Made by a program: the position numbers and the translations under genes. The notes beneath the pieces were generated by a model that was not told where the DNA came from, did not search any database, and saw only the letters and a list, made by a program, of their open reading frames with translations. A DNA stretch of 53,467 nucleotides from Dehalococcoidia bacterium SM23_28_2 (GTDB taxonomy: Bacteria > Chloroflexota > Dehalococcoidia > SM23-28-2): the NCBI GenBank assembly GCA_001303545.1, contig LJUA01000002.1, forward strand, positions 1-53,467, read 5' to 3'. Positions 21,016 through 53,397 of this stretch are shown here, piece after piece; position 1 is the stretch's first letter, and every line of letters begins with the position of its first letter.

Positions 21016-21144
21016 CTCTCATCTTTCCCTTCGGTGCAGCCGAAGGGTCGGACTTGGCACCGTATCCAGCTATAGCGAATCGCTCTGGCGCGGACCGGTT
21101 GCCGGGTTTCCTCGGGCCGTTCCCTCCACCACTCGCGATAAGAG
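21016..21144 (-). promoter_or_regulatory. SAM-I (S-box) riboswitch aptamer
   Basis: The minus strand reads CTCTTATCGCGAGTGGTGGAGGGAACGGCCCGAGGAAACCCGGCAACCGG...CGGTGCCAAGTCCGACC...GAAGGGAAAGATGAGAG. This matches the S-box core (CUCUUAUC..GAG.GGUGGAGGGA..GGCCC..GAA.CCCGGCAACC...GGUGCCAA.UCC...AGAUGAGAG), including the P1 halves. Confidence 0.9.
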
Positions 21145-25263: not shown

Positions 25264-25360
25264 GGGAGTGGATGGGCCCCGGTGGGCCTCTCGGTCTTCA
25301 AAACCGATGCGGGGCGGTAGGACCGTCCCGGGTGGGTTCGACTCCCATGCACTCCCGCCA
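25264..25360 (+). tRNA. selC: tRNA-Sec (anticodon UCA), 97 nt including an encoded CCA
   Basis: GGGAGTGGATGGGCCCCGGTGGGCCTCTCGGTCTTCAAAACCGATGCGGGGCGGTAGGACCGTCCCGGGTGGGTTCGACTCCCATGCACTCCCGCCA. Acceptor GGGAGTG pairs with CACTCCC. The D-stem has 6 bp (GGGCCC/GGGCCT) with a 4-nt loop. The anticodon arm is TCGGT-CTTCAAA-ACCGA. The long variable arm has 8 bp (GGGGCGGT/ACCGTCCC). The T-loop is GGTTCGACTCC. Confidence 0.9.
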
Positions 25361-36185: not shown

Positions 36186-36358
36186 AAAAAAAGGCCTTTT
36201 GCCAGTAACCGCCGGCAAGGCCTTTCGTGCGCCTCCGAGGTTAGTTGACGGATTCGGGTTGAAAGGCTAACCCTACCCCGACGCTGTCGGGGATTCACCC
36301 CAGTATTTGGTCCCCCGTGTCGCCTGTGGCGACTTCGGCGCGGGCGATCGTGACTTCA
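36186..36358 (-). ncRNA. Candidate structured leader or small RNA of about 170 nt, class unknown, ending in an intrinsic terminator
   Basis: The minus strand carries consecutive hairpins GTCGCC-acag-GCGAC, CCCCGAC-agc-GTCGGGG and GGGTT-agcctttca-AACCC. A terminator GGCCTTGCC-ggcggttact-GGCAAAAGGCC follows, with TTTTTTT at 36186-36222. Confidence 0.45.
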
Positions 36359-47148: not shown

Positions 47149-47577
47149 TCACTCCGGCGGTTCACCTGTCCCGCCGCTCCGAGCCGGAAGCACCTGCACG
47201 ACGATGGTCCTGTCGCGCGGGCCGTCGAACTCGCACAGGAACACGCCCTGCCACTGGCCGAGGGCTAGGCGTCCCTCGTCGATGGGCACGGTCAGGGATA
47301 GGCCCGTCAGGGTGGACTTGATGTGGGCGGGAGCGTTGCCCTCCAGATGCTGGTAGCTGCCCTTGTTGGGGACCAGGGCCTCCAGCCGGTCCAGGATGTC
47401 TCGTGCCACCGAGGGGTCGGCGTTCTCGTTGATGATGATGCCGGCAGTGGTGTGCGGCACGTACAGGTAGCAGACGCCATCCTCGACGCCGCTGCGGCGG
47501 ATGACATCGTTGACCCTATGGGTGATCTCCTCCAGTACTTCCCTGCCCCTGGTGAAGACCTTTATACGCGATAGCAC
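47149..47577 (-). CDS. yjbQ: YjbQ/UPF0047 family protein (secondary thiamine-phosphate synthase family)
   Basis: 142 aa, ...[37 protein letters not shown]...[38 protein letters not shown].... Confidence 0.85.
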
Positions 47578-47694
47578 GATCGCCGCTCCTTCCCTTGTGC
47601 TGCTCTCCCATTATAGCGTGAACTTCCCTTACCGGCGCTAGCGTCGCTTTCTTGACGCCTGTGAAGCTGTCTGCTACGTTGCCGGCGAGAAGCG

Positions 47695-48498
47695 ATGAAA
47701 AGAACGGTGCTGACCATCGCCGGCTCCGATTCCAGCGGCGGCGCTGGCATCCAGGCCGACCTCAAGACCTTCGCCGCCCTGGGCGTGTACGGGACCTGCG
47801 CCATAACCGCCGTCACCGCCCAGGATAGCAGGGGGGTGCAGGCCATCCACGAGCTTCCGCCGGAGCTGGTGGCCGCCCAGATCGATGCCGTCGTCGGGGA
47901 CATGGGCGTGGACGCTGTGAAGACGGGGATGCTGGCCAACGCCGGGATCGTTCGGGTGGTGGCGGAGAGAATGCGACGGCATGACCTGCCGAACCTGGTG
48001 ATCGATCCGGTGCTTGTCGCCAAGAGCGGCGACCGCCTGCTGAGGGAGGAGGCCGTGGACGTTCTCAGGGGAGAGCTGCTTCCCCTGTGTACCGTCGTCA
48101 CGCCCAACATACCCGAGGCGGAGGCGCTGGTGGGCCGTCGTCTGGAGACCGACGCGGATCTTCAACGGGCGGCGCAGGAGATAGCGGCGCTGGGGGCGAG
48201 GAGCGTGGTGATCACCGGCGGCCACGCCTCGGGGCCGGATGCGGTGGACCTGCTGTACGACGGCAAGAGCATTCGGCGCTTCTCGGCGCCGCGACTGGCC
48301 ACTCGCCACGGGCGTGGCACCGGCTGCACCTTCGCCTCCGCTATTACCGCCTGGCTGGCGCAGGGCGCGGCCATCGACGAGGCGGTGGCGCGGGCCAAGG
48401 AGTACGTGACGGCGGCTCTGGAGCATGCCCTCGCGTTGGGTAAGGGGCCGGGGCCGGTGCATCACTTCTACAGGTTGTGGGAGGGCGGCGATCGTTGA
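47695..48498 (+). CDS. thiD: Hydroxymethylpyrimidine/phosphomethylpyrimidine kinase
   Basis: [33 protein letters not shown]...VKTGML...TPN.PEA..L...[10 protein letters not shown]... Confidence 0.93.
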
Positions 48499-48542
48499 CA
48501 TTTGTTCGCCTGCCTGCTAACCTGGAAGTGCCAATCGAATAA

Positions 48543-50079
<1,537 letters not shown>

Positions 50080-50100: not shown

Positions 50101-50895
50101 GTGGCCATGGAAGACTATCTGGAGATCGCTGGCAAGAAGTTCCGCTCGCGGCTGATGGCGGGCACCGGGAAGTACCGCAGCACGGAGGACATGCTGGCCG
50201 CCCTGGAGGCCTCAGGCACCGAGATCGTGACCGTGGCTATCCGCCGGCTGAACCTGGACAACCCCAAGGAGAAGACCCTCCTGGACCTCATCGACTGGAG
50301 CAAATACACCATCCTGCCCAATACCGCCGGTTGCCGGACGGTGGAGGACGCCCTGTTCACGGCCCGCCTGGCGCGGGAGGTCACCGGCTCCGACTGGATC
50401 AAGCTGGAGGTGATCCCCGACCCCAAGTACCTCCTCCCCGACGCGGCGGGCACGCTGGAGGCCGCCAAGGTGCTCGTCGGCGAGGGCTTCACCGTCCTGC
50501 CCTACATCCACGCCGACCCCATCCTCGCCCGCCGGCTGGAGGAAGTGGGCTGCGCCACCGTCATGCCCCTGGGCTCGCCCATCGGCTCCGGGCGGGGCAT
50601 TTTCACCCTGGAAGAGATCCAGATAATCGTGGAGGAGGCCAAGGTACCGGTGGTGGTCGACGCTGGCCTGGGGGTGCCCTCCGAGGCCTCGCTGTCCATG
50701 GAGATCGGGGCGGACGCCGTGCTGGTCAATACAGCCATCGCCGAGGCGGCGAACCCGGCCATGATGGCCGAGGCCTTCCGCCTGGGGGTGGAGGCCGGTC
50801 GACGCGCCTACCTGGCGGGGCGCATCCCCAAGAAGGCCTACGCCTCCGCCAGCAGCCCCATCGAGGGAGTGGCCCGGCCGGCCGCCGGTTCCTGA
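50101..50895 (+). CDS. thiG: Thiazole synthase ThiG
   Basis: ...[21 protein letters not shown]...ILPNTAGC.T...A...AR......WIKLEVI.D...LLPD...[14 protein letters not shown]... Confidence 0.93.
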
Positions 50896-51545
50896 TGAGG
50901 CTGCCCATCCCCTGCCTGACGCTGATCACCGACCGCCGTCTGTGCGAAGGCCTATCGCTGGAGGAGGCGGTGGCGCAAGCGGTCGACGGCGGCGTGAACG
51001 TGGTGCAGTTGCGGGAGAAGGACCTGACGGCGGCCCAGCTCATCCCTCTGGCCGACCGTCTGCGGGCGATAACGGAGGACAAGGCTCTGCTGATCGTGAA
51101 CACTCATCTCGATGTGGCCCTGGTCTGCGCCGCCGATGGCGTTCATCTGCCGGAGAGGGGCCCGTCGGTGGCCGCGATGCGCCGGCTGGCGGGCGATGGC
51201 TTCATCATAGGGCGCTCCGTGCACAGCGCGGAGGAGGCGGTGAGGGCCGAGGAGGAAGGCGCGGACTACGTGCAGGTGGGGGCCATCTTTCCTACCCGCT
51301 CCCATCGAGGCCTGCCTGCCGCCGGCCTGGCGCTTCTGAAGAGCGTGGCCGCGATGCTGGCGATCCCCATCGTGGCCGTGGGGGGCATCACCGCCGGGAA
51401 CGTGGAGCAGGTGATGCGAGCGGGCGCCGAGGGCGCCGCCGTCATCTCCGCCATCCTCGATTCGTCCTCGCCGGGGGCGGCGGCCCGACGGCTGGCCGAA
51501 GCGGTGTCCGAGGCGGCGGTGCCTGCGCGGAGGAGGAGGGCGTGA
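50895..51545 (+). CDS. thiE: Thiamine-phosphate synthase ThiE
   Basis: The ATG overlaps the thiG stop (TGATG). Sequence is [16 protein letters not shown]...VNVVQLREKDL...LIVNTHLDVALVCAADGVHL...YVQVGAIFPT.SH...PIVAVGGIT.... It is the C-terminal part of track ORF 50076..51545. Confidence 0.9.
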   Translation: MRLPIPCLTLITDRRLCEGLSLEEAVAQAVDGGVNVVQLREKDLTAAQLIPLADRLRAITEDKALLIVNTHLDVALVCAADGVHLPERGPSVAAMRRLAGDGFIIGRSVHSAEEAVRAEEEGADYVQVGAIFPTRSHRGLPAAGLALLKSVAAMLAIPIVAVGGITAGNVEQVMRAGAEGAAVISAILDSSSPGAAARRLAEAVSEAAVPARRRRA

Positions 51546-51742
51546 TCACCGTCACCGTCAACGGCGAGAAGCGAGAGGCGGAGGGCCCCACTGAGCTCAT
51601 CGCTTTTCTGGAGACCCTGGGAATCAATGTCCGCCATGTGGCCGTGGCCCACAACGGGACCGTGCTCCAGCGCCAGAGGTGGCCGGAGGTTGTCCTTCAG
51701 GACGGCGACGTCTTGGAGGTCGTGCGCATGGTAGGCGGGGGC
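51542..51742 (+). CDS. thiS: Sulfur-carrier protein ThiS domain (67 codons ending VGGG). No stop codon follows, and the frame stays open into the next gene.
   Basis: The GTG overlaps the thiE stop (GTGA). Sequence is VITVTVNGEKREAEGPTELIAFLETLGINVRHVAVAHNGTVLQRQRWPEVVLQDGDVLEVVRMVGGG. Codons 51743-51775 (AQARTRKEPLV) continue in frame to ATG 51776. Checked codon by codon. Confidence 0.8.
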
Positions 51743-51775
51743 GCTCAAGCCAGGACGAGAAAGGAGCCTTTAGTC

Positions 51776-52288
51776 ATGGACGCTCTGCTTCTCTTGCTCG
51801 CCTTCGGCGCCGGAATAGCTGCTGCTATCCAGATACTGGTCAACGGTGCCTTGGGGGAGGAGCGGGGCGTACCGGAGGCGCTGATGGTGTCCGTGACGGT
51901 GACCTACGGCTCCGTCGTGCTGTTCATGCTGGTCCGCTTCGCCTTTATGGGTGAGCTGAACCTGAACACCCCAGGCAGGCCACTGTTCTACCTGCTGCCG
52001 CTGGCGTTCGTCGCCCTGCTCGCCTTCCTGGGCTTGATGGGCGGCCTGCAGTGGTACTACTTCCTGGGCGGCCTGGCTGGCGCGCTCATCGTCTCTACGC
52101 TGGCCTTTGCGGGTCCCCGTATCGGCATCGCGACCAGCAGCGCCGCCCTCATCGCCGGGCAGATGGCCGGCGCCATCCTGTGGGACCACCTGGGGCTCCT
52201 GGCCCAACCCAAGGACCCCATCGATGCCCTCAAGGTTATCGGCGCGCTCCTCATCGTCGGCGGTGTCGTACTCGTGCGGGGGGTGTGA
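51776..52288 (+). CDS. DUF606/YdcZ-like small membrane protein (DMT-superfamily half-transporter), 170 aa
   Basis: ATG 51776 is preceded by AAAGGAG at 9 nt. MDALLLLLAFGAGIAAAIQILVNGALG...LAGALIVSTLAFAGPRIGIATSSAALIAGQMAGAILWDHLGLL...LIVGGVVLV has about 5 TM segments. The stop overlaps the thiO ATG (TGATG). Confidence 0.7.
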   Translation: MDALLLLLAFGAGIAAAIQILVNGALGEERGVPEALMVSVTVTYGSVVLFMLVRFAFMGELNLNTPGRPLFYLLPLAFVALLAFLGLMGGLQWYYFLGGLAGALIVSTLAFAGPRIGIATSSAALIAGQMAGAILWDHLGLLAQPKDPIDALKVIGALLIVGGVVLVRGV

Positions 52289-53397
52289 TGGCAGACGTGG
52301 TTATCGTTGGCGGCGGGGTCATCGGCTGCTCCATCGCCTATCATCTAGCCGAGGCTGGCGTCCCGGTGACCATCCTCGAGCGAGGGGAGATCGGCGGCGA
52401 GGCATCGGGGGCCTCGGCGGGCATCCTGGCCCCTGTAGAGGTGTCCCCGGGGCCGGACGCTCTCCACGAGCTCTACCTGGCCAGTCTGCGGCTGTTTCCA
52501 TCCCTGGCGGACAGGCTGCCGGAGGAGACGGGGATCGACATCGAGTACCTGCGATCGGGCGTCCTGCGGCTGGCCCTCAGCGACGCGGATGTCGACGAGC
52601 TGCGGGCCCTCGCGGAACGCGAACCGCTGGGGCAAGGGATGGAGCGGGTGGATCGAGACGCGTTGCGCCGCCTGGAGCCGCGGCTGGCATCGACTTGCGG
52701 CGGCGTGCACTTTCCCGACCTCTGCCAGGTGAACCCCCATCGGCTGGCTCAGGCCCTGGCCCAGGCGGCGGTCGCCCGCGGCGCGGCGCTACGCCAGGGC
52801 GTGACCGTGAGGGGGTTCGTGACCAGCAGTGCGCGGGTGACCGGCGTGCGCACCAGCGAGGGCAGGGTGACGGCCGGGCAGGTGGTTATCGCCGCCGGCT
52901 CCTGGACGGCGGCCCTCGGCCGCCGATTGGGTGCGAACCTGCCGGTGAGGCCCATGCGAGGGCAGATGCTGGCCTTCCCCAACTTCTCCTCGCCGATAAG
53001 GCACATCGTCTTCTGGCACGATGCCTACCTGGTGCCCAAGGCCAACGGCTTTATCTTCGCTGGCTCGACGGTGGAGGATGTGGGCTTCCGCAGGAACACC
53101 ACGGCGAAGGGCCTGGCCGGCCTGCGGAGAATGGCCGCCACGCTGGTGCCCAGCCTGGCCTACTCTGAGGTGTCCTCCGACTGGGCTGGCCTGCGGCCGG
53201 GCTCTCCGGATGGGCTGCCCATGCTTGGGCCGGTCCCCGGCTGGGAAGGGCTGAGCGTGGCCAGCGGCCACTTCCGCAAGGGGATCCTGCTGGCGCCGAT
53301 CACCGGTCGACTGATGGCCCAATTGCTGACGGAAGGCAGAATGGAGGTCTCTCTGGGGCCGTTCAGCCCGTCGCGGTTCGCCGCCGGTGCTCGCTGA
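52288..53397 (+). CDS. thiO: Glycine oxidase ThiO (FAD-dependent)
   Basis: MADVVIVGGGVIGCSIAYHLAEAGVPVTILERGEIGGEASGASAGIL...GHFRKGILLAPITG.... It is the C-terminal part of track ORF 52051..53397. Confidence 0.85.
   Translation: MADVVIVGGGVIGCSIAYHLAEAGVPVTILERGEIGGEASGASAGILAPVEVSPGPDALHELYLASLRLFPSLADRLPEETGIDIEYLRSGVLRLALSDADVDELRALAEREPLGQGMERVDRDALRRLEPRLASTCGGVHFPDLCQVNPHRLAQALAQAAVARGAALRQGVTVRGFVTSSARVTGVRTSEGRVTAGQVVIAAGSWTAALGRRLGANLPVRPMRGQMLAFPNFSSPIRHIVFWHDAYLVPKANGFIFAGSTVEDVGFRRNTTAKGLAGLRRMAATLVPSLAYSEVSSDWAGLRPGSPDGLPMLGPVPGWEGLSVASGHFRKGILLAPITGRLMAQLLTEGRMEVSLGPFSPSRFAAGAR

What the first reader, a model, noticed from the sequence alone, without database searches (positions are those of the whole stretch)
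51542..52288. thiS lacks a stop codon after its Gly-Gly terminus and reads in frame into a DUF606 membrane protein
ThiS begins at GTG 51542, overlapping the thiE stop. It ends with the expected ...VLEVVRMVGGG at codon 67. The next codons are GCT CAA GCC AGG ACG AGA AAG GAG CCT TTA GTC ATG..., with no stop until 52286-52288. I checked every codon from 51542 to 51781.

The sulfur-carrier function requires a free C-terminal Gly-Gly for adenylation and thiocarboxylation. As written, ThiS would be made as a ThiS-linker-membrane-protein fusion and would need proteolytic release. A precedent for such processing exists in JAMM-protease-dependent carriers such as QbsE and CysO-type systems.

An AAAGGAG sequence 9 nt before ATG 51776 indicates the membrane protein is also made on its own. 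Shifting the G-run by one base does not create a stop right after GG, so a simple homopolymer error does not explain this.
Basis: partly seen in the sequence, partly recalled or inferred. Interest (0 to 1): 0.7.

Follow-up and report, generated by a model that had tools for sequence, protein, structure and literature searches.

The report
Conserved ThiS–membrane protein gene fusion
In one group of uncultured Chloroflexota bacteria, the small sulfur-carrier protein needed to make vitamin B1 is encoded with no stop codon and fused in frame to a membrane transporter-like protein, so it probably has to be cut free after its Gly-Gly end, much as ubiquitin is cut from its precursors.

Summary
From GTG 51542 to TGA 52286-52288 there is one 248-codon ORF: ThiS (codons 1-67, ending VGGG), an 11-codon linker, then a 170-residue DMT_YdcZ (DUF606) membrane protein. 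It lies in a TPP-riboswitch operon, thiC-thiG-thiE-[thiS~ydcZ]-thiO.

It is not a sequencing error. In scans keyed only on YdcZ, 70 of 71 loci carrying both parts are fused in frame. More than 120 protein clusters (65-98% identity) have the same 248-aa architecture. All named sources are Dehalococcoidia/Chloroflexota MAGs.

GGG is invariant (dN=0 despite synonymous change). Residue 68 is Ala or Ser. AAGGAG and a start codon (ATG/GTG) at codon 78/79 are always present. Pro76 and Leu77 are conserved through synonymous codon changes, so both the read-through product and an internally initiated YdcZ appear to matter.

Best explanation: a ThiS precursor is released by cleavage after Gly67, as in MoaD-MoaE/MoaX, QbsE and CxnE. 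Supporting this, 27 of 70 neighbouring unfused ThiS genes carry 1-23-residue tails after GG. No protease or ThiF was found nearby, and cleavage is inferred, not shown.

Verdict: new variant of a known kind; moderate interest.

The parts
48540..48654 (+). TPP riboswitch at the head of the operon
   Evidence: Rfam RF00059, 66.7 bits, above the gathering score.
48724..50079 (+). thiC
   Evidence: ORF list. Orthologues carry PF01964 in the same position.
50101..50895 (+). thiG (thiazole synthase, the enzyme that uses ThiS thiocarboxylate)
   Evidence: Pfam PF05690, E=4.9e-112.
50895..51545 (+). thiE (thiamine-phosphate synthase); its stop overlaps the thiS start (GTGA)
   Evidence: Pfam PF02581, E=7.7e-55; sequence.
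51542..51742 (+). ThiS domain, codons 1-67, ending VGGG (GGG = 51734-51742), with no stop codon
   Evidence: TIGR01683 equivalog at 70.3 bits, with the profile end at Gly67. AF2 pLDDT is 81-86. The GGG is invariant in 51 unique junction DNAs, with dN=0.
51743..51775 (+). 11-codon in-frame linker AQARTRKEPLV. Ala68 is the putative P1' residue. Codons 69-73 are variable and A-rich. KEPL is conserved.
   Evidence: Codon table; composition GC3 0.62 and A 0.30, against 0.84-0.88 and 0.12-0.14 in the flanks; AF2 pLDDT below 50 for residues 64-76.
51760..51766 (+). AAAGGAG Shine-Dalgarno sequence for internal initiation of ydcZ, also read as codons K74-E75
   Evidence: AAG GAG is present in 50 of 51 unique junctions. 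The same SD sits before ydcZ in the one unfused locus, L013.
51776..52288 (+). YdcZ/DUF606 membrane domain (170 aa, six predicted helices). ATG 51776 is the internal start and TGA 52286-52288 is the stop.
   Evidence: Pfam PF04657, E=3.5e-23. AF2 model pLDDT 89. Start-codon conservation.
52288..53397 (+). thiO (glycine oxidase type FAD oxidoreductase); its ATG overlaps the ydcZ stop (TGATG)
   Evidence: Pfam PF01266, E=1.7e-82; sequence.

Best explanation
This is a real, evolutionarily conserved gene fusion in a clade of Dehalococcoidia-like Chloroflexota. The operon's only thiS has no stop codon and is translated straight into a YdcZ/DUF606 six-helix membrane protein.

Two products are made from the one ORF.

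1. A ThiS-linker-YdcZ precursor, initiated at GTG 51542. Its soluble beta-grasp ThiS domain and positively charged linker face the cytoplasm.
2. YdcZ alone, initiated at the conserved AAGGAG-N9-ATG (51776).

For ThiS to serve ThiG as sulfur carrier, its Gly67 carboxylate must be free. The precursor is therefore most likely cut between Gly67 and Ala68 by a peptidase encoded elsewhere; a JAMM/MPN+ enzyme is the obvious candidate. That would yield ThiS-GG plus YdcZ carrying an 11-residue N-terminal tail. Such processing seems to be routine in this part of the tree, because many neighbouring lineages encode ThiS with short tails after GG.

- **Shown:** the open frame, its conservation, the invariant GGG, the conserved internal start signals, and protein-level constraint on part of the linker.
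- **Inferred:** cleavage, its position, the protease, and what YdcZ transports (a thiamine-related compound is suggested only by operon membership).
For: - **Open frame and domains.**
- **Conservation.** More than 120 clusters at 65-98% identity carry PF02597+PF04657, and nearly all are 248 aa. In YdcZ-keyed scans of GTDB genomes and JGI metagenomes, 70 loci are fused in frame, 1 is unfused, and 5 are uninformative.
- **Only one thiS.** The gene order thiC-thiG-thiE-thiS~ydcZ-thiO has a single thiS in every locus, and there is no second ThiS in the 53-kb window.
- **The ThiS domain is still under selection.** GGG has dN=0 with dS about 0.43. The ThiS domain has dN/dS about 0.41, against 0.25-0.30 for unfused relatives.
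- **Residue 68.** It is Ala in 48 of 51 junctions (four codons) and Ser in 3. This parallels the Gly82|Ser83 cleavage site of MoaX (PMC4326299).
- **Linker translated in this frame.** Pro76 is kept in 48 of 51 with all four codons. Leu77 is kept in 43 of 51 through CTG, TTA, CTA and TTG.
- **Internal start.** AAG GAG is present in 50 of 51. Codon 79 is ATG (45) or GTG (3); the 3 GTT cases have GTG at codon 78. The leader-like A-rich composition of codons 68-73 agrees.
- **Flexible linker.** AF2 gives a confident ThiS fold and a disordered linker.
- **Tails after GG are common nearby.** 27 of 70 unfused ThiS genes have 1-23 extra residues. ThiS+ThiO and ThiS+DUF952 read-through fusions also exist.
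- **Precedents for GG processing of sulfur-carrier precursors.** PMC4326299, PMC8832034, PMC5925218.
Against: - No experiment or proteomic data shows cleavage.
- No JAMM, ThiF/MoeB or other candidate peptidase is in the window. None lies within +-10 kb of any related locus by precomputed Pfam. A strict JAMM motif scan of 1.59 Mb found none.
- The complete genomes of fused organisms could not be searched, so a second, free ThiS elsewhere is not excluded.
- ThiS dN/dS is somewhat higher in fused than in unfused genes.
- The absence of nonsense codons in the linker is not significant on its own (about 2.1 events expected, P=0.12). Only 2-3 independent linker indels are seen. Selection for the fusion as such therefore rests mainly on the Pro76/Leu77/Ala68 codon patterns.
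Confidence: 0.62

Rival explanations
1. The fusion is permanent. The ThiS-like beta-grasp domain stays attached as a cytoplasmic domain of the YdcZ transporter, with a regulatory, tethering or topology-fixing role. The sulfur carrier for ThiG is a different ThiS/MoaD paralogue encoded elsewhere.
For: - The linker residues next to TM1 (KEPL) are under protein-level constraint.
- ThiS dN/dS is slightly relaxed: 0.41 against 0.25-0.30.
- No processing protease is seen nearby.
- Whole genomes could not be checked for a second thiS.
Against: - GGG is absolutely invariant across sequences whose ThiS domains have diverged to about 41-60% identity. A mere domain linker would not need that.
- The fused gene occupies exactly the thiS slot of a complete thiC-G-E-S-O operon, and no other thiS lies within 20 kb in any locus.
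- The protein still scores as the thiS equivalog, well above the cut-off.
Confidence: 0.2
2. The product is processed as a precursor, but the fusion itself has no function. In a lineage that already trims ThiS tails, loss of the stop codon was neutral, and the in-frame state persists only by descent.
For: - Tails after GG are common in neighbouring lineages, and other read-through fusions occur.
- The lack of nonsense codons in the linker is not statistically significant.
- One lineage (L013) is unfused, apparently through a 2-nt indel, and keeps the same SD and ATG.
- Close relatives of the window organism do without ydcZ altogether.
Against: - 70 of 71 loci keep the frame over a linker dS of about 0.9.
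- Pro76, Leu77 and Ala68 are conserved through synonymous codon changes. This implies selection on a peptide that is translated only by read-through.
Confidence: 0.15
3. The feature is a sequencing or assembly error, a pseudogene, or a recoding event (frameshift or unusual termination) that yields a normal free ThiS.
For: A G-run (GGCGGGGGC) sits at the junction.
Against: - The same open junction is found in dozens of independent assemblies that use different Gly codons.
- No out-of-frame stop is conserved after the GGG, and any shifted product would not end in GG.
- Both halves are under purifying selection.
Confidence: 0.02

Closest known systems
MoaD-MoaE fused molybdopterin synthases (M. 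tuberculosis MoaX; D. radiodurans DR2607 cut by DRJAMM; archaeal SAMP1-MoaE cut by HvJAMM1)
   Same: A ThiS/MoaD-family beta-grasp sulfur carrier is encoded with no stop after its Gly-Gly and fused to the next protein. Cleavage after GG is required for activity. In MoaX the cut is Gly82|Ser83, a small P1' residue like the Ala/Ser68 seen here (PMC4326299, PMC8832034).
   Different: There the partner is the carrier's own soluble catalytic subunit. Here it is an integral membrane DMT/YdcZ protein with no known role in the ThiS cycle, and a conserved internal start also makes the partner on its own. Cleavage has been demonstrated for those fusions but not for this one.
Sulfur-carrier proteins with short C-terminal tails removed by JAMM peptidases (QbsE/QbsD, CxnE/CxnF)
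   Same: The GG motif is followed by extra residues (CF; SEAARAEESR) that must be removed before adenylation (PMC5925218). Here, 27 of 70 neighbouring ThiS genes show such tails.
   Different: In those systems the JAMM gene sits in the same cluster. No JAMM is present in or near these thi operons. The 'tail' here is a whole 181-residue membrane protein.
Ubiquitin fusion precursors (Ub-ribosomal protein fusions in eukaryotes; the Caldiarchaeum Ub precursor processed by Rpn11)
   Same: A beta-grasp protein ending in GG is synthesised as an N-terminal fusion and released by a dedicated peptidase (PMC6043591 for the archaeal case; eukaryotic cases from general knowledge).
   Different: Those are protein modifiers. 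ThiS here is a cofactor-biosynthesis sulfur carrier, and no conjugation machinery is implied.
Canonical bacterial ThiS (B. subtilis 1TYG, E. coli 1F0Z/1ZUD, T. thermophilus 2CU3/2HTM)
   Same: Same family and length, and the C-terminal GG aligns with the chain end of the solved ThiS proteins. The operon partners ThiG, ThiE and ThiO are the same.
   Different: Canonical genes stop right after GG. This one does not.

Membership tests
ThiS sulfur carrier (TIGR01683 / PF02597) | Sequence matches the ThiS profile above the curated cut-off | tested here: met
   TIGR01683 equivalog scores 66-70 bits against a cut-off of 37.45. PF02597 scores 49 bits against a cut-off of 22.5.
ThiS sulfur carrier (TIGR01683 / PF02597) | Beta-grasp fold | tested here: met
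   The AF2 model has pLDDT 81-86 over residues 1-63, with a strand/helix order typical of beta-grasp. There are sequence matches to solved ThiS chains.
ThiS sulfur carrier (TIGR01683 / PF02597) | Gly-Gly motif at the position of the C-terminus | tested here: met
   G65-G66-G67 is invariant in 100 proteins and 51 unique DNAs.
ThiS sulfur carrier (TIGR01683 / PF02597) | Free C-terminal carboxylate at the last Gly in the primary translation product | tested here: not met
   There is no stop until 52286-52288. A free end would need proteolysis, which cannot be tested with these tools.
ThiS sulfur carrier (TIGR01683 / PF02597) | Genomic association with thiG, thiE, and thiO or thiH | tested here: met
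   The operon thiC-thiG-thiE-thiS~ydcZ-thiO lies behind a TPP riboswitch.
ThiS sulfur carrier (TIGR01683 / PF02597) | Adenylation and thiocarboxylation by ThiF/MoeB | not testable with these tools
   No ThiF was found in the window or within +-10 kb of related loci.
DMT_YdcZ / DUF606 (PF04657) | Sequence matches the family profile above the cut-off | tested here: met
   82.9 bits against a cut-off of 24, covering profile positions 1-140 of 140.
DMT_YdcZ / DUF606 (PF04657) | Five-TM half-transporter architecture | tested here: inconclusive
   The AF2 model (pLDDT 89) and hydropathy give six helices. A ~25-residue insertion adds a helix relative to 140-149-aa members. Foldseek puts DMT and SMR structures at the top, but with E>0.1.
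GG-processed sulfur-carrier fusion precursors (MoaX type) | In-frame fusion directly after the GG of a ThiS/MoaD-family domain | tested here: met
GG-processed sulfur-carrier fusion precursors (MoaX type) | Post-translational cleavage after GG | not testable with these tools
   Inferred only, from the invariant GGG and the small residue at position 68.
GG-processed sulfur-carrier fusion precursors (MoaX type) | JAMM/MPN+ peptidase encoded in the genome | tested here: inconclusive
   None was found in the window or in 1.59 Mb of related thi neighbourhoods, using a strict motif plus Pfam on neighbours. The rest of the genomes was not available.

The most novel reading that the evidence does not exclude
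The fusion may be selected as a fusion. Under this reading one ORF deliberately yields two YdcZ isoforms. One is forced N-in by the folded ThiS domain and the Arg/Lys-rich linker. The other is made from the internal start and has almost no charge bias. The two would assemble into the active transporter, while a dedicated deubiquitinase-like peptidase releases ThiS at the membrane. Supply of sulfur carrier would then be tied stoichiometrically to a thiamine-related transport step. That would be a bacterial primary-metabolism counterpart of ubiquitin-fusion precursors, combined with topology control through alternative initiation.
Probability: 0.12. Interest if true: 0.75.

Novelty: new variant of a known kind. 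Interest (0 to 1): 0.5.

Why it matters
- If ThiS is made as a membrane-protein fusion and must be cut free, thiamine biosynthesis in this Chloroflexota clade depends on an unidentified GG-specific processing peptidase. The short tails on 39% of neighbouring ThiS genes suggest the same may hold more widely.
- It would extend the precursor logic known for ubiquitin, MoaD-MoaE and some secondary-metabolite carriers to the core ThiS of vitamin B1 synthesis.
- It gives a first functional handle on a DUF606/YdcZ subfamily: membership of a TPP-riboswitch operon.
- For annotation, these 248-aa genes are currently named either 'ThiS' or 'transporter family-2 protein'. Neither name captures the two-product architecture.

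Tried and rejected
- rejected, because many independent assemblies with different Gly codons show the same open junction.
- **Programmed frameshift or alternative termination:** rejected. There is no conserved out-of-frame stop, and shifted products would not end in GG.
- **Nearby protease.** A conserved membrane alpha/beta-hydrolase (weak Peptidase_S9 hits) lies downstream of tenI and looked like a candidate. It is equally present at unfused loci, so it is not specific to the fusion.
- **JAMM and ThiF searches:** nothing was found by motif scan, by Pfam on unassigned window ORFs, or by precomputed Pfam of neighbours.
- **Function of YdcZ from standalone relatives:** the nearest 170-aa standalone homologues (about 37% identity) are not in thiamine loci, so they give no support.
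- **AF2 of the whole fusion with a shallow alignment:** this gave an unusable membrane part. A more diverse alignment fixed that, but Foldseek matches to PDB were not significant.
- **Statistical test for avoidance of nonsense codons in the linker:** not significant. The indel evidence is too sparse to use.
- **Literature:** no paper combines DUF606 with thiamine, and none of the 15 listed of 21 YdcZ papers is titled on thiamine or ThiS. Searches with 'ThiS' are swamped by the English word 'this'.
- **Direction of evolution:** I could not resolve whether ydcZ was lost in L014-L019 or regained in the window lineage.
Full report
**1. The observation**

GTG 51542 overlaps the thiE stop (GTGA). 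Codons 65-67 (51734-51742) are GGC GGG GGC at the end of ...VLEVVRMVGGG. The next codons are GCT CAA GCC AGG ACG AGA AAG GAG CCT TTA GTC ATG, and the first in-frame stop is TGA 52286-52288.

The NCBIfam thiS equivalog TIGR01683 matches residues 4-67, and its last profile position falls on Gly67. Pfam finds ThiS (PF02597) and DMT_YdcZ (PF04657, the former DUF606) in the same 248-residue ORF.

The surrounding genes form a thiamine operon behind a TPP riboswitch at 48540-48654:
- thiC 48724-50079
- thiG 50101-50895
- thiE 50895-51545
- thiS~ydcZ 51542-52288
- thiO 52288-53397

**2. It is not an artefact**

- The identical protein is encoded on an independent ENA contig.
- A search of 5.8 billion proteins returned more than 120 clusters at 65-98% identity. 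Nearly all are exactly 248 aa and carry both Pfam domains. The one that carries a name is called 'sulfur carrier protein ThiS [Dehalococcoidia bacterium]'.
- To avoid bias towards fused genes, I scanned GTDB species genomes and JGI metagenomes with patterns that included (GTDB scan) or consisted only of (metagenome scan) YdcZ motifs. I then examined what lies upstream of each hit.

| Upstream state of the 76 loci examined | Loci |
|---|---|
| thiS fused in frame | 70 |
| Contig ends before the junction (two of these still show ...GGGA...KE..M in frame) | 4 |
| Probable chimeric contig end (L142) | 1 |
| Unfused (L013) | 1 |

In L013 thiS ends GGGCA-TAG, and ydcZ follows in another frame with the same AAGGAG and ATG. 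The junction looks like a 2-nt indel relative to its fused relatives.

All named sources are Dehalococcoidia/Chloroflexota MAGs. In the 1.84-billion-representative library the fused proteins collapse into a single 50%-identity cluster, and the next YdcZ relatives are at most 37% identical.

**3. Anatomy of the junction** (51 unique DNA sequences)

| Codon(s) | Pattern |
|---|---|
| G65-G67 | Invariant in protein but variable in codon (NG86 dN=0, dS about 0.43) |
| 68 | Ala in 48 (GCT/GCG/GCC/GCA), Ser in 3 |
| 69-73 | Up to 11 different residues per position; A-rich with low GC3 (0.62 against 0.84-0.88 in the flanks; A 0.30 against 0.12-0.14), like a translation-initiation leader |
| 74-75 | AAG GAG in 50 of 51 |
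| 76 | Pro in 48 of 51, using all four codons |
| 77 | Leu in 43 of 51, via CTG, TTA, CTA and TTG |
| 79 | ATG in 45, GTG in 3, GTT in 3; the GTT cases have GTG at codon 78 |

A start codon is therefore always present 6-9 nt after the SD. This supports an internally initiated YdcZ.

The synonymous-only variation at Ala68, Pro76 and Leu77 indicates selection on a peptide that can only be made by read-through from thiS, because no upstream start exists in the linker.

NG86 dN/dS values (dS is near saturation, so these are rough):

| Region | dN/dS |
|---|---|
| ThiS domain, fused genes | 0.41 |
| ThiS, unfused relatives | 0.25-0.30 |
| Linker codons 68-73 | 0.53 |
| Linker codons 74-78 | 0.21 |
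| YdcZ | 0.23 |

No out-of-frame stop is conserved after the GGG, so recoding does not explain the junction.

**4. Structure**

With 100 fused sequences, AF2 gives a confident ThiS beta-grasp (pLDDT 81-86), a disordered linker (residues 64-76, below 50) and an unreliable membrane part.

With a more diverse alignment, the YdcZ part alone reaches pLDDT 89 and pTM 0.78 and shows six helices, in agreement with hydropathy. A ~25-residue insertion adds a helix compared with 140-149-aa family members.

Foldseek places DMT and SMR transporters at the top, but not significantly. No PDB sequence relative exists for the membrane part. Solved ThiS chains end at the residue aligned with Gly67. The Arg71/Arg73/Lys74 linker fits a cytoplasmic N-terminus for helix 1.

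**5. Context and evolution**

Every fused locus has the order thiC-thiG-thiE-thiS~ydcZ-thiO. Upstream lie thiD, YjbQ and SIR2, and downstream is a tenI-like gene. Each locus has only one thiS, and the window has no second ThiS.

By flanking genes, the window's closest relatives are:
- L014: thiE 92%, thiS 91%, thiO 89%.
- L015-L019: thiG 92-95%.

These relatives have no ydcZ at all, and their thiS stops immediately after GGG. The next relatives are fused loci with thiG about 85% and ydcZ 85-92% identical. The linker+ydcZ unit is therefore present or absent among close relatives. Whenever it is present (apart from L013) it is joined in frame exactly at Gly67. I could not resolve the direction of change (loss or regain).

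**6. Why processing is the best explanation**

Established ThiS chemistry requires adenylation and thiocarboxylation of the terminal Gly carboxylate by ThiF, and insertion of the tail into ThiG. A peptide-bonded Gly67 therefore cannot serve.

Four observations argue that this domain is still the working carrier:
- The GGG is invariant.
- The protein retains the equivalog-level thiS signature.
- It occupies the thiS slot of an otherwise complete operon.
- A small residue at position 68 is conserved.

Precedents exist:
- MoaX must be cleaved between Gly82 and Ser83, by an unidentified protease (PMC4326299).
- DR2607 MoaD-MoaE is cut by DRJAMM, and SAMP1-MoaE by HvJAMM1 (PMC8832034).
- QbsE (GG-CF) and CxnE (GG plus a decapeptide) are proposed to be trimmed by cluster-encoded JAMM enzymes (PMC5925218).

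In this phylogenetic neighbourhood, 27 of 70 unfused ThiS genes carry 1-23 residues after GGG. ThiS+ThiO and ThiS+DUF952 read-through fusions also occur. This suggests that ThiS tail-trimming is routine in these lineages.

**7. What is missing**

- No JAMM, ThiF/MoeB or other specific peptidase was found in the window, within +-10 kb of related loci, or by a strict JAMM-motif scan of 1.59 Mb.
- A conserved membrane alpha/beta-hydrolase downstream is also present at unfused loci.
- Whole genomes could not be searched, so a second free ThiS is not excluded.
- The absence of nonsense codons in the linker is not significant by itself (about 2.1 expected, P=0.12).
- The nearest standalone YdcZ relatives are not in thiamine loci. 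The substrate of YdcZ therefore rests only on operon membership.

**8. Novelty and verdict**

I found no paper linking DUF606/YdcZ with thiamine or ThiS. The principle, a GG-ending sulfur carrier made as a precursor, is known. Three things are new:
- the carrier is ThiS of primary thiamine synthesis;
- the partner is an integral membrane protein;
- the one ORF appears to have two conserved translation starts.

I rate this a new variant of a known kind, with moderate interest (0.5). Confidence that the fusion is real and conserved is about 0.97. Confidence that ThiS is released by cleavage after Gly67 is about 0.6.

Noticed in passing
L013-L082 (thiS 3' ends); proteins P0196, P0189: 27 of 70 unfused ThiS genes in Chloroflexota, Dormibacterota and neighbouring lineages have 1-23 extra residues after GGG. 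Separate read-through fusions ThiS+ThiO(DAO) and ThiS+DUF952 exist. This suggests a widespread ThiS C-terminal processing activity.
   Followed up: partly
window 51776-52285; alignment A4; model m56de588e3fc5: The 170-aa YdcZ subfamily, both fused and standalone, has a ~25-residue insertion that forms a sixth hydrophobic helix between canonical TM2 and TM3. This should invert the topology of the last three helices relative to 5-TM family members.
   Followed up: partly
L014-L019 versus window 51743-52288: The closest relatives by thiC/G/E/O identity lack linker+ydcZ entirely and have TAA/TAG/TGA directly after GGG. The cassette is therefore polymorphic among close relatives, and the direction of change (loss or regain by recombination) is unresolved.
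   Followed up: partly
L013 3441-4189: This is the only unfused thiS/ydcZ pair. thiS ends GGGCA-TAG, apparently through a 2-nt indel just after GGA. ydcZ keeps the same AAGGAG and ATG. It could be a real reversion or an assembly error.
   Followed up: no
window 47152-47610 (-), 47665-48495 (+): A YjbQ/UPF0047 gene (a family linked to secondary thiamine-phosphate synthase activity) sits next to thiD, just upstream of the riboswitch. The SIR2-YjbQ-ThiD arrangement is conserved in related loci.
   Followed up: no
L145 13905-15116 and homologues in L007, L008, L012, L015-L017, L062, L146, L147: A conserved ~400-aa membrane-anchored alpha/beta-hydrolase (weak DLH/Peptidase_S9 hits) follows the tenI-like gene downstream of thiO, at both fused and unfused loci. 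Its function is unknown.
   Followed up: partly
window 25264-25356 (+), 21016-21144 (-), 36217-36350 (-): A tRNA-Sec gene, a SAM riboswitch (upstream of the methionine-salvage/SAM-cycle genes) and a c-di-AMP riboswitch are also present in the window.
   Followed up: no
L005, L007, L008, L012, L119, L121, L145, L146 (between thiC and thiG): Many A-type fused loci carry a CN_hydrolase (nitrilase-superfamily) gene inserted between thiC and thiG. L146 additionally has a HEPN_AbiU2 gene, and an acetyltransferase between thiE and thiS.
   Followed up: no
L142 2150-2449: A ydcZ fragment starting at about residue 13 is joined abruptly to a PotD-like substrate-binding protein gene at a contig end. This is probably a chimeric assembly.
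   Followed up: partly
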